Below, piece by piece: positions 18,659 to 18,734 of a stretch of 64,000 nucleotides of DNA. The notes under the pieces were generated by a model that saw only the letters and a program-made list of their open reading frames with translations, did no database searches and was not told where the DNA came from. Numbering within the stretch: position 1 is the first letter of the stretch; each line of letters opens with the position of its first letter. The translations under genes and the position numbers were made by a program. Origin of the DNA: an uncultured Bacillota bacterium (GTDB lineage Bacteria; Bacillota_I; Bacilli_A; RFN20; CAG-826); assembly GCA_949293555.1 (NCBI GenBank), contig CASFDV010000001.1, positions 12,590 through 76,589 of the forward strand. The letters run 5' to 3'.

Positions 18659-18734
18659 TGGTGGACCATGCAGGATTTGAACCTGCGACCTAGCTCTTAT
18701 AAGGGGCCCGCGCTAACCGCTGCGCTAATGGTCC
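18659..18734 (-). tRNA. tRNA-Ile (TAT anticodon, reads AUA)
   Basis: Reverse complement is GGACCATTAGCGCAGCGGTTAGCGCGGGCCCCTTATAAGAGCTAGGTCGCAGGTTCAAATCCTGCATGGTCCACCA. Canonical 76-nt cloverleaf. Anticodon loop is CTTATAA. The body resembles E. coli ileX (tRNA-Ile2), including the G27-U43 pair and the GGTCGC-GGTTCAA-TCC T-arm. Confidence 0.7.

What the first reader, a model, noticed from the sequence alone, without database searches (positions are those of the whole stretch)
18659..18734. tRNA-Ile with a UAU anticodon in an Ile-Met-Ala tRNA cluster outside any rRNA operon
Almost all bacteria read AUA with tRNA-Ile2 bearing a CAU anticodon modified to lysidine by TilS. A genomically encoded UAU anticodon is known only from a small number of lineages (for example Mycoplasma mobile and a few others) and needs special anticodon modification to avoid reading AUG. 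This tRNA has an ileX-like body (G27-U43, matching T-arm) but loop CTTATAA. The neighbouring CAT tRNA has a paired G1:C72 and metT-like sequence, so it is an elongator Met, not the lysidine Ile2. Unusually, tRNA-Ile and tRNA-Ala(TGC) occur here as a free-standing cluster rather than in a 16S-23S spacer.
Basis: partly seen in the sequence, partly recalled or inferred. Interest (0 to 1): 0.55.

Follow-up and report, generated by a model that had tools for sequence, protein, structure and literature searches.

The report
Isoleucine tRNA with a UAU anticodon
An uncultured gut-type Bacilli bacterium carries a real, conserved isoleucine tRNA that reads the rare AUA codon directly with a UAU anticodon; this is a known but uncommon solution, seen here in a new lineage, and I could not check whether the usual enzyme (TilS) has been lost.

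Summary
ARAGORN and Rfam call a tRNA-Ile(UAU) at 18659-18734 on the minus strand. It is the last gene of an Ala(UGC)-Met(CAU)-Ile(UAU) cluster, and there is no rRNA in the window.

The tRNA is functional. It is 93-100% identical in at least ten independent contigs from related Bacilli/"Mollicutes" genomes with 37-61% GC. Nine stem pairs show changes on both sides, and no CAU version was found.

It has a tRNA-Ile2 (ileX-like) body. It sits where tRNA-Ile2 belongs in the Firmicutes tRNA array (Ala-Met-[Ile2]-Ser-fMet). The best reading is therefore a C34-to-U34 replacement of the lysidine-dependent tRNA, as in Mycoplasma mobile.

- Such genes are not confined to a few lineages.
- Studied bacterial cases have an unmodified U34.
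- The Ala/Ile cluster is not a displaced rRNA spacer pair.

AUA is rare (1.7 per 1000 codons) only because of GC3 bias.

Absence of tilS, absence of a second tRNA-Ile2(CAU) and adaptation of IleRS could not be tested.

One odd feature is a conserved C30·A40 mismatch in the anticodon stem.

Verdict: new member of a known kind, of modest interest.

The parts
18659..18734 (-). tRNA-Ile(UAU) gene with encoded CCA. The anticodon is at 18701-18699. G27·U43 lies at 18708/18692 and the C30·A40 mismatch at 18705/18695.
   Evidence: ARAGORN. Rfam 64.7 bits. Sequence read. Conservation and covariation.
18830..18906 (-). Elongator tRNA-Met(CAU), with G1:C72 and anticodon loop UUCAUAC.
   Evidence: ARAGORN. 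Rfam 60.3 bits. It is 78.9% identical to the Lysinibacillus elongator-type Met and conserved in relatives.
18924..18998 (-). tRNA-Ala(UGC), the first gene of the cluster.
   Evidence: ARAGORN. Rfam 68.3 bits.
19021..19049 (-). Sigma-70-like promoter candidate (TTGATG-17-TATATT, TG-extended) upstream of tRNA-Ala.
   Evidence: Consensus scan: 1 site found against 0.3 expected. This is a consensus match only.
18632..18649 (-). Intrinsic-terminator-like hairpin (GCCCGGCGTGAGCCGGGC followed by a T-run) immediately after tRNA-Ile.
   Evidence: Consensus scan.
9247..9337 (-). tRNA-Ser(UGA), the next member of the ancestral array. In relatives L110, L071, L128 and L130-L132 it directly follows tRNA-Ile(UAU).
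   Evidence: ARAGORN.
3445..3521 (-). Initiator tRNA-fMet(CAU), with C1xA72. It is the array member after Ser and is identical to the initiator tRNA in L008 and L110.
   Evidence: ARAGORN. Sequence. Alignment.
11950..18669 (-). Three genes (541-aa lipoprotein-like, 751-aa, 911-aa ABC ATPase) lying between tRNA-Ile and the Na+/H+ exchanger. They are absent at this position in the sister lineages L004 and L007, so this is a lineage-specific insertion downstream of the tRNA.
   Evidence: Gene tables. The 11950-14685 gene has lower GC3.

Best explanation
This is a functional minor isoleucine tRNA that reads AUA directly with a genomically encoded UAU anticodon. It descends from the Firmicutes tRNA-Ile2 (the lysidine/TilS substrate) by a C34-to-U34 change, and it still occupies the Ile2 slot of the ancestral tRNA array (Ala-Met-Ile2-Ser-fMet).

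Shown:
- The gene and its cloverleaf are real.
- It is under strong purifying selection, with compensatory changes, across a clade of uncultured Bacilli/'Mollicutes' genomes.
- It has an Ile2-type body and sits in the Ile2 position.
- No CAU version of this tRNA was found anywhere.
- AUA codons are in use and align mostly with AUU/AUC in relatives.

Inferred:
- It is transcribed with Ala and Met from the promoter near 19049 to the terminator at 18632.
- It is charged by an IleRS that tolerates U34. Many Firmicutes IleRS have Arg at the E. coli W905 position (PMC3575796).
- It carries t6A37 and probably an unmodified U34.
- It pairs U34 with A. AUG misreading is limited by weak U·G pairing, by competition from tRNA-Met and perhaps by ribosome or tRNA-body features, as in M. 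mobile and the B. subtilis tilS-deletion suppressor.
- Because the ancestral Ile2 gene itself carries the change, the lineage has probably lost tilS. I put that at about 0.6; it is not shown.
For: - Gene calls.
- Conservation: the identical or near-identical gene (96-100%) lies in the same DegV/~295-aa ORF/Ala/Met/Ile context in L002, L004, L005 and L007. DegV is 98%, 69% and 66% identical and GC is 61%, 40% and 37%.
- Wider clade: 93% identical copies occur in L110 (OX437086.1, a 1.06-Mb 'uncultured Firmicutes' chromosome) and L071. A related copy occurs in L019 (Mollicutes UMGS482), and three more on metagenome contigs L130-L132.
- Covariation on nine sequences: 93.7% of cells are paired, 9 pairs change on both sides, and 0 of 500 shuffles reach this.
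- No CAU form: a clade-specific pattern with Y at position 34 found only TAT, never CAT, in the metagenome collection, and nothing in viral contigs.
- Ile2 ancestry: 77.6% identity to E. coli ileX against 68.4% to ileV and 61.8% to metT; C4-G69, C5-G68 and G27·U43 are shared with ileX.
- Position: the window order on the minus strand, Ala-Met-Ile ... Ser ... fMet, matches the rRNA-linked array of Lysinibacillus, which runs 5S-...-Pro-Ala-Met-[X]-Ser-fMet-Asp-Phe. Ile(UAU) directly abuts Ser(UGA) in six relatives.
- Codons: there are 27 AUA codons in 15,622. Window AUA aligns mainly to AUU/AUC in orthologues.
- Precedent: C-to-U at position 34 together with tilS loss in M. mobile and haemoplasmas (PMC4014445, PMC3575796); an unmodified U34 that still reads AUA selectively (PMC3575796, PMC3919564); the 2013 prediction that tilS-less Firmicutes would be found (PMC3575796).
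Against: - The whole genome was not available. tilS, a second tRNA-Ile2(CAU) gene and the IleRS sequence could not be examined.
- The negative TilS searches cover only the 64-kb window and about 1 Mb of fetched loci.
- Some bacteria, such as L. casei, Cyanothece and Ferrimonas, carry both tilS and a TAT gene (PMC3575796).
- The anticodon stem has a C30·A40 mismatch. In isolation that could suggest a weakened tRNA, and the MFE fold does not form the canonical anticodon stem.
- The AUA-to-Ile codon evidence rests on few sites, and three relative AUA codons align with window AUG.
- That the slot between Met and Ser holds Ile2(CAU) in Bacillus arrays rests on my own knowledge of the B. subtilis trnB cluster. 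The Lysinibacillus copy seen here carries a degenerate UAU tRNA there.
Confidence: 0.75

Rival explanations
1. It is a redundant extra AUA decoder. The genome still has tilS and a tRNA-Ile2(CAU) elsewhere, and the UAU tRNA works alongside them, as proposed for Lactobacillus casei, Cyanothece and Ferrimonas.
For: Co-occurrence of tilS and a TAT gene is documented (PMC3575796). Nothing here examines the rest of the genome. The TilS searches cover only fetched DNA.
Against: The UAU gene sits in the ancestral Ile2 slot rather than beside it. Clade genomes are small (L110 comes from a 1.06-Mb chromosome) and would be unlikely to keep duplicate minor tRNAs. No CAU form of this tRNA body was found. 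The G27·U43 pair, a TilS determinant in E. coli (my own knowledge), drifts to A-U and C-G within the clade.
Confidence: 0.22
2. It is a decaying or non-functional tRNA gene, or a miscalled anticodon.
For: There is a C30·A40 mismatch in the anticodon stem. RNAfold's MFE does not draw the canonical anticodon arm. A clearly degenerate UAU tRNA does exist in the same array slot of a Lysinibacillus genome (Rfam 36 bits).
Against: Two independent callers agree on the tRNA and its anticodon. It is 93-100% identical across genomes whose GC content differs by 24 points. Nine stem pairs show compensatory changes. The mismatch itself is conserved in 7 of 9 clade sequences rather than varying. A73 and the CUUAUAA loop are invariant.
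Confidence: 0.02
3. It is a tRNA brought in by a phage or mobile element to supply a rare codon.
For: Phages often carry tRNAs for rare codons (my own knowledge). A three-gene insertion lies directly downstream of the tRNA.
Against: The tRNA keeps the same chromosomal neighbours in four lineages. It forms part of the ancestral tRNA array. The clade-specific pattern has no match in 2.9 million viral contigs. No integrase or phage genes appear in the Pfam results for the flanks.
Confidence: 0.01

Closest known systems
Mycoplasma mobile / haemoplasma tRNA-Ile2(UAU) system (Taniguchi et al. 2013, PMC3575796; Grosjean et al. 2014, PMC4014445)
   Same: A Firmicutes-derived lineage in which the tRNA-Ile2 gene carries U34 instead of C34. 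The tRNA has an Ile2-type body and an expected t6A37 context (U36-A37-A38), and it is the only AUA decoder visible.
   Different: Here tilS loss, the IleRS Arg/Lys adaptation and the U34 modification state are untested. The host is a non-mycoplasma, high-GC (61%) Bacilli MAG lineage that uses the standard code. The anticodon stem carries a conserved C30·A40 mismatch; the text of the M. mobile paper I read does not mention a mismatch.
Bacillus subtilis tilS-deletion suppressor tRNA1-Ile(G34U) (Fabret 2011; Köhrer 2014, PMC3919564)
   Same: A UAU-anticodon Ile tRNA working in a Bacilli translation apparatus. U34 is unmodified, AUA binding is strong and AUG binding is weak.
   Different: The suppressor derives from tRNA-Ile1(GAU) and arose in the laboratory. 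The window tRNA has an Ile2 body and is fixed in a natural clade.
Canonical bacterial tRNA-Ile2(CAU)/lysidine, e.g. E. coli ileX
   Same: 77.6% sequence identity, a short D-loop, C4-G69, C5-G68, G27·U43, A73 and the same slot in the Firmicutes array.
   Different: The anticodon is TAT, not CAT, so no lysidine is needed or possible. It also has the C30·A40 mismatch.
Lactobacillus casei-type coexistence of tilS with a tRNA-Ile(TAT) gene (PMC3575796)
   Same: A Bacilli host and a genomic TAT gene.
   Different: In that case tilS and Ile2(CAU) are retained. Whether that holds here is unknown.

Membership tests
Bacterial tRNA-Ile(UAU) AUA decoder replacing the TilS/lysidine system (M. mobile type; 'Ile3' in tRNAscan-SE 2.0) | A tRNA gene with a canonical cloverleaf and a TAT anticodon. 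| tested here: met
   ARAGORN and Rfam. Covariation on 9 sequences.
Bacterial tRNA-Ile(UAU) AUA decoder replacing the TilS/lysidine system (M. mobile type; 'Ile3' in tRNAscan-SE 2.0) | Isoleucine identity elements: A35-U36-A37-A38, A73, C4-G69 and C29-G41. This is the E. coli IleRS set, from my own knowledge. | tested here: met
   All are present and invariant in the clade alignment. Pair 12-23 varies: G-C, U-A or G·A.
Bacterial tRNA-Ile(UAU) AUA decoder replacing the TilS/lysidine system (M. mobile type; 'Ile3' in tRNAscan-SE 2.0) | No tilS gene in the genome. | not testable with these tools
   There is no TilS-like ORF in the window or in about 1 Mb of fetched loci, by tblastn, phmmer and a 3-sequence HMM.
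Bacterial tRNA-Ile(UAU) AUA decoder replacing the TilS/lysidine system (M. mobile type; 'Ile3' in tRNAscan-SE 2.0) | No tRNA-Ile2(CAU) gene in the genome. | tested here: inconclusive
   The two CAU tRNAs in the window are the initiator and the elongator Met. The Ile2 array slot holds the UAU gene. No CAT form of this body was found in the metagenome scan. The whole genome was not seen.
Bacterial tRNA-Ile(UAU) AUA decoder replacing the TilS/lysidine system (M. mobile type; 'Ile3' in tRNAscan-SE 2.0) | An IleRS able to charge a UAU anticodon: Arg/Lys at the E. coli W905 position, or a type-2 IleRS. | not testable with these tools
   ileS is not in the window or in any clade locus (tblastn with E. 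coli IleRS).
Bacterial tRNA-Ile(UAU) AUA decoder replacing the TilS/lysidine system (M. mobile type; 'Ile3' in tRNAscan-SE 2.0) | AUA codons are used and mean isoleucine. | tested here: met
   There are 27 AUA in 15,622 codons, in line with other NNA codons. Window AUA aligns to AUU/AUC or AUA at 5 of 7, 4 of 5 and 5 of 6 sites in three relatives. The sample is small.
tRNA-Ile2 (ileX-like, lysidine substrate) lineage | A CAU anticodon to be converted to lysidine. | tested here: not met
   The anticodon is TAT in every clade member.
tRNA-Ile2 (ileX-like, lysidine substrate) lineage | An Ile2-type body and the Ile2 genomic slot. | tested here: met
   It is closest to E. coli ileX (77.6%), with C4-G69, C5-G68 and G27·U43. 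It lies between the elongator Met and Ser(UGA)/fMet, as in the Firmicutes array.
16S-23S spacer tRNA-Ile1(GAU)/tRNA-Ala(UGC) pair | A GAU anticodon and a location between the 16S and 23S rRNA genes. | tested here: not met
   The anticodon is TAT, there is no rRNA in the window, and identity to E. coli ileV is only 68.4%.

The most novel reading that the evidence does not exclude
A whole clade of uncultured, non-mycoplasma Bacilli (gut 'Mollicutes'/Bacilli MAGs, 37-61% GC, genomes of about 1 Mb and up) has abandoned the TilS/lysidine system. The conserved C30·A40 mismatch in the anticodon stem of its tRNA-Ile(UAU) would then be an adaptation of the tRNA body that tunes decoding, for example by disfavouring U34·G wobble on AUG or by blocking U34-modifying enzymes. 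That would be a tRNA-encoded fidelity solution, distinct from the ribosome-based one proposed for M. mobile.
Probability: 0.15. Interest if true: 0.55.

Novelty: new member of a known kind. Interest (0 to 1): 0.3.

Why it matters
AUA/AUG is the one codon pair where simple wobble fails, and TilS is treated as essential and near-universal in bacteria. Each independent lineage that reads AUA with a plain UAU anticodon is a natural experiment in how IleRS, the tRNA body and the ribosome compensate.

This case would extend the phenomenon to free-standing gut Bacilli, as was predicted in 2013. It also offers a very conserved tRNA with an unusual anticodon-stem mismatch as a handle for experiments.

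The side result is that UAU-type Ile tRNAs turn up in well over a hundred species-level genomes, especially Patescibacteria, where they sit beside ftsH. This suggests that the 'rare exception' view, still repeated in a 2026 preprint (10.64898/2026.02.03.703510), comes from sampling cultured organisms.

On its own, the finding in this window is not a new mechanism.

Tried and rejected
1. Identifying the source genome. Exact look-ups of window proteins returned only short Logan contigs and 98%-identical ENA scaffolds. LeuRS homologues are named only 'Mollicutes/Bacilli/Bacillota bacterium'.

2. Finding tilS.
- I obtained E. coli TilS from the K-12 record, and G. kaustophilus and Aquifex TilS fragments from PDB alignments.
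- tblastn, phmmer and a small HMM found nothing in the window or in any fetched locus.
- I could not direct a database search at this lineage's TilS or IleRS. The third protein search was therefore left unused.

3. Finding ileS or ftsH in clade loci, in case tilS was a neighbour. None were found.

4. Extending the window. Looking up proteins at its ends gave no new sequence beyond it.

5. Specific depletion of AUA. Rejected: its share (3.2% of AUH) is like GUA, CUA, UCA and CGA under a GC3 of about 0.9.

6. Phage origin. Rejected.

7. The idea that the CAU tRNA at 18830 might be the real Ile2. Rejected on sequence and position.

8. A class I synthetase next to tRNA-Ile(UAU) in locus L103 looked like a possible IleRS. 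It is ValRS.

9. Literature searches for a documented link between tilS loss and Patescibacteria or Planctomycetes found nothing relevant.

Full report
**Observation**

ARAGORN finds five tRNA genes in the window, all on the minus strand:
- tRNA-Ala(tgc) at 18924-18998
- tRNA-Met(cat) at 18830-18906
- tRNA-Ile(tat) at 18659-18734
- tRNA-Ser(tga) at 9247-9337
- tRNA-Met(cat) at 3445-3521

Rfam's tRNA model confirms all five (the Ile gene scores 64.7 bits, E = 8.8e-12) and finds no rRNA or other family in the 64 kb.

The Ile gene reads GGACCAT TA GCGC AGCGGTTA GCGC G GGCCC CTTATAA GAGCT AGGTC GCAGG TTCAAAT CCTGC ATGGTCC A CCA. The anticodon loop is CUUAUAA with U34 A35 U36. The discriminator is A73 and CCA is encoded. 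The anticodon stem has G27·U43 and a C30·A40 mismatch.

The genes lie on the minus strand, so the transcriptional order is Ala-Met-Ile. A sigma-70-like promoter candidate lies upstream of Ala (19049-19021), and a terminator-like hairpin lies directly after Ile (18649-18632).

**Host**

The window is 58-67% GC, with GC3 around 0.9. Its gene content points to Firmicutes:
- Rnf complex
- glgC/glgD/glgA
- LeuRS
- coaX
- priA-def-rsmB-rlmN-prpC-prkC-rpe
- F1 ATPase beta and epsilon subunits

The LeuRS has 98% and 79% relatives that exist only in ENA/NCBI/Logan assemblies. It is then about 72% identical to proteins that NCBI names 'MAG: Mollicutes bacterium', 'Bacilli bacterium' or 'Bacillota bacterium'. 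The host is an uncultured member of the Bacilli that uses the standard genetic code; long ORFs are intact under table 11.

**Is the tRNA real and functional?**

Homologues of the adjacent DegV gene led to related contigs. L002 (DegV 98% identical, GC 61%), L004/L005 (69%, GC 40%) and L007 (66%, GC 37%) all carry DegV, a ~295-aa ORF, then Ala(TGC), Met(CAT) and Ile(TAT). Their tRNA-Ile(UAU) is 96-100% identical to the window's. It includes one compensatory G49-C65 to A49-U65 change.

A scan of one genome per species for an Ile2-like UAU tRNA pattern added three clade members:
- L110: OX437086.1, an 'uncultured Firmicutes' chromosome of 1.06 Mb, tRNA 93% identical, with an initiator tRNA identical to the window's
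- L071: tRNA 93% identical
- L019: 'Mollicutes UMGS482'

A clade-specific pattern that allowed C or T at position 34 found three more copies on metagenome contigs. All three are TAT and none is CAT. The same pattern has no match in viral contigs.

On nine distinct sequences the cloverleaf is paired in 93.7% of cells. Nine pairs change on both sides, and 0 of 500 shuffles reach the observed values. This is a functional tRNA under purifying selection. It is not a pseudogene, a miscall or a phage import.

**What it derives from**

The body is Ile2-like. It is 77.6% identical to E. coli ileX (CAU), 68.4% to ileV (GAU) and 61.8% to metT. It shares with ileX the short D-loop, C4-G69, C5-G68 and G27·U43.

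The neighbouring CAU tRNA is 78.9% identical to the elongator-type Met of a Lysinibacillus array and has the same UUCAUAC loop. The CAU tRNA at 3445-3521 has C1xA72 and is the initiator.

The order along the minus strand is Ala, Met, Ile, (genes), Ser(UGA), (genes), fMet. The same order appears in the rRNA-linked Firmicutes array found in Lysinibacillus locus L076: 5S rRNA..., Pro, Ala, Met, [X], Ser, fMet, Asp, Phe. In L110, L071, L128 and L130-L132, Ile(UAU) directly abuts Ser(UGA). From my own knowledge of the B. subtilis trnB cluster, slot X is the tRNA-Ile2(CAU) gene.

The window tRNA is therefore best read as the positional orthologue of tRNA-Ile2 with C34 replaced by U34. This is the same change described for M. 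mobile and the haemoplasmas (PMC4014445). It also means the 'free-standing Ile+Ala cluster' is not a displaced spacer pair. The spacer Ile is Ile1(GAU), and this Ala belongs to the array.

**Codon usage**

In 38 confident ORFs (15,622 codons) there are 762 AUC, 49 AUU and 27 AUA codons, so AUA occurs at 1.7 per 1000. AUA makes up 3.2% of AUH. That is similar to other A-ending codons in this GC3-rich genome: GUA 1.8%, CUA 3.8%, UCA 4.8% and CGA 4.2%. AUA is rare because of composition, not because it is specifically avoided.

Low-GC relatives use AUA at 3-7 per 1000, and L071 uses it at about 22 per 1000. Window AUA codons align mostly with AUU/AUC in orthologues, consistent with Ile. The sample is small.

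**How it most likely works**

Two steps are shown: the gene exists, and it is conserved in the Ile2 slot. The rest is inferred from the two experimentally studied systems.
- In M. mobile, U34 is unmodified, IleRS needs Arg865 (E. coli W905) to charge the UAU tRNA, and the cognate ribosome rejects AUG (PMC3575796).
- In the B. subtilis tilS-deletion suppressor, U34 is also unmodified, and the tRNA binds AUA strongly and AUG weakly on B. subtilis ribosomes (PMC3919564).
- Taniguchi et al. noted that Firmicutes IleRS often already have the Arg, and they predicted that tilS-less Firmicutes would be found.

I therefore expect U34·A pairing by a t6A37-bearing, probably U34-unmodified tRNA charged by a permissive IleRS. 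I put tilS loss at about 0.6. The alternative, at about 0.2-0.25, is L. casei-like redundancy with a retained tilS and Ile2(CAU).

**What could not be tested**

tilS, a second CAU Ile2 gene and ileS all lie outside the window. TilS searches of the window and of all fetched loci were negative, but that is not a genome-wide test. I spent the single genome-collection scan on the tRNA pattern. Protein searches cannot be aimed at one lineage's TilS.

**An unusual detail**

The C30·A40 mismatch in the anticodon stem is present in 7 of the 9 distinct clade sequences, while neighbouring pairs covary (27-43 as G·U, A-U or C-G; 28-42 as G-C or A-U). Among 116 tRNA-Ile(UAU) genes collected here, 91 have a fully paired anticodon stem. 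C30·A40 occurs only in this clade and in one other sequence.

Its conservation suggests a function, possibly tuning of decoding or of recognition by a modification enzyme. That is speculation. RNAfold's MFE avoids the canonical arm because of the mismatch.

**Comparison with what is known, and novelty**

However, 371 distinct metagenomic TAT sequences had already been noted in 2013.

They comprise 52 Patescibacteria, 19 'Gammaproteobacteria' MAGs, 11 Planctomycetota and others.

The finding is thus a new member of a known kind: an uncultured Bacilli clade joining M. mobile, the haemoplasmas, Bifidobacterium and Neorickettsia. Membership in the 'tilS-less' class remains unproven.

Interest is modest (0.3). 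It would rise if tilS loss and a functional role for the C30·A40 mismatch were demonstrated.

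Noticed in passing
Loci L021, L033, L035, L036, L037, L042, L045, L055, L058, L059, L063, L064, L066, L088, L093, L104, L111, L114, L117 (genome scan): In about 19 Patescibacteria/CPR genomes, tRNA-Ile(UAU) lies right next to ftsH, often as ftsH, then tRNA-Ile(tat), then tRNA-Val(gac). In most bacteria tilS sits beside ftsH (my own knowledge). No TilS-like ORF was detected in any of these 8-kb loci. 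This hints at widespread TilS-independent AUA decoding in CPR.
   Followed up: partly
Of these loci, 111 carry an ARAGORN-confirmed tRNA-Ile(tat): 52 CPR, 19 'Gammaproteobacteria' MAGs, 11 Planctomycetota, plus Dormibacterota, actinomycetes, a chlamydia and one Thermoplasmata archaeon. This is far more than the 17-19 species cited in the literature.
   Followed up: partly
Window as a whole, compared with L004, L007 and L139: The window's lineage has about 61% GC (GC3 about 0.9). Sister lineages with the same gene order have 37-40% GC, with LeuRS 79% and DegV 66-69% identical. This is a shift of more than 20 points in GC within a narrow group.
   Followed up: no
Window 11950-18669 (-): Three genes lie between tRNA-Ile and the Na+/H+ exchanger: a 541-aa lipoprotein-like protein, a 751-aa protein with no Pfam or NCBIfam match, and a 911-aa ABC ATPase. 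They are absent at this position in L004 and L007. The ABC gene has low GC3 (0.62) and 6 of the window's 27 AUA codons, which suggests an insertion next to the tRNA.
   Followed up: partly
L004 12229-13143; L005 7629-8618: In the 40%-GC sister lineage, an ORF of 304 or 329 aa sits between tRNA-Met and tRNA-Ile(UAU), splitting the cluster.
   Followed up: no
L076 443-516 (-) (Lysinibacillus sp. NPDC096418): One rRNA-linked tRNA array of a Lysinibacillus genome has, in the slot between Met and Ser, a degenerate tRNA with a CUUAUAA loop. Rfam scores it only 36 bits, ARAGORN does not call it, and the D-arm is disrupted. It may be a decaying or variant Ile2 copy carrying UAU.
   Followed up: partly
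L018, L023, L026 (Planctomycetota): These loci hold very dense tRNA arrays of 17-35 tRNA genes in 8 kb. The arrays include tRNA-Ile(tat) between two Lys tRNAs, and some calls with four-base anticodons.
   Followed up: no
Window 26024-29071 (-): In the Rnf operon, the gene between rnfD and the next Rnf-Nqr membrane-subunit gene (rnfE/rnfA-type) encodes a 1015-aa protein. It shows only weak FMN_bind and sCache_3_3 matches, and is far longer than a usual RnfG. It is 871-1017 aa in relatives.
   Followed up: no
L071 ('Alistipes shahii' bin, contig CAVBUY010000018.1): This contig carries the Bacilli-clade tRNA-Ile(UAU)-Ser array and an initiator tRNA of the Bacilli clade type (a few substitutions from the window's). 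It has probably been mis-binned into a Bacteroidota genome.
   Followed up: no
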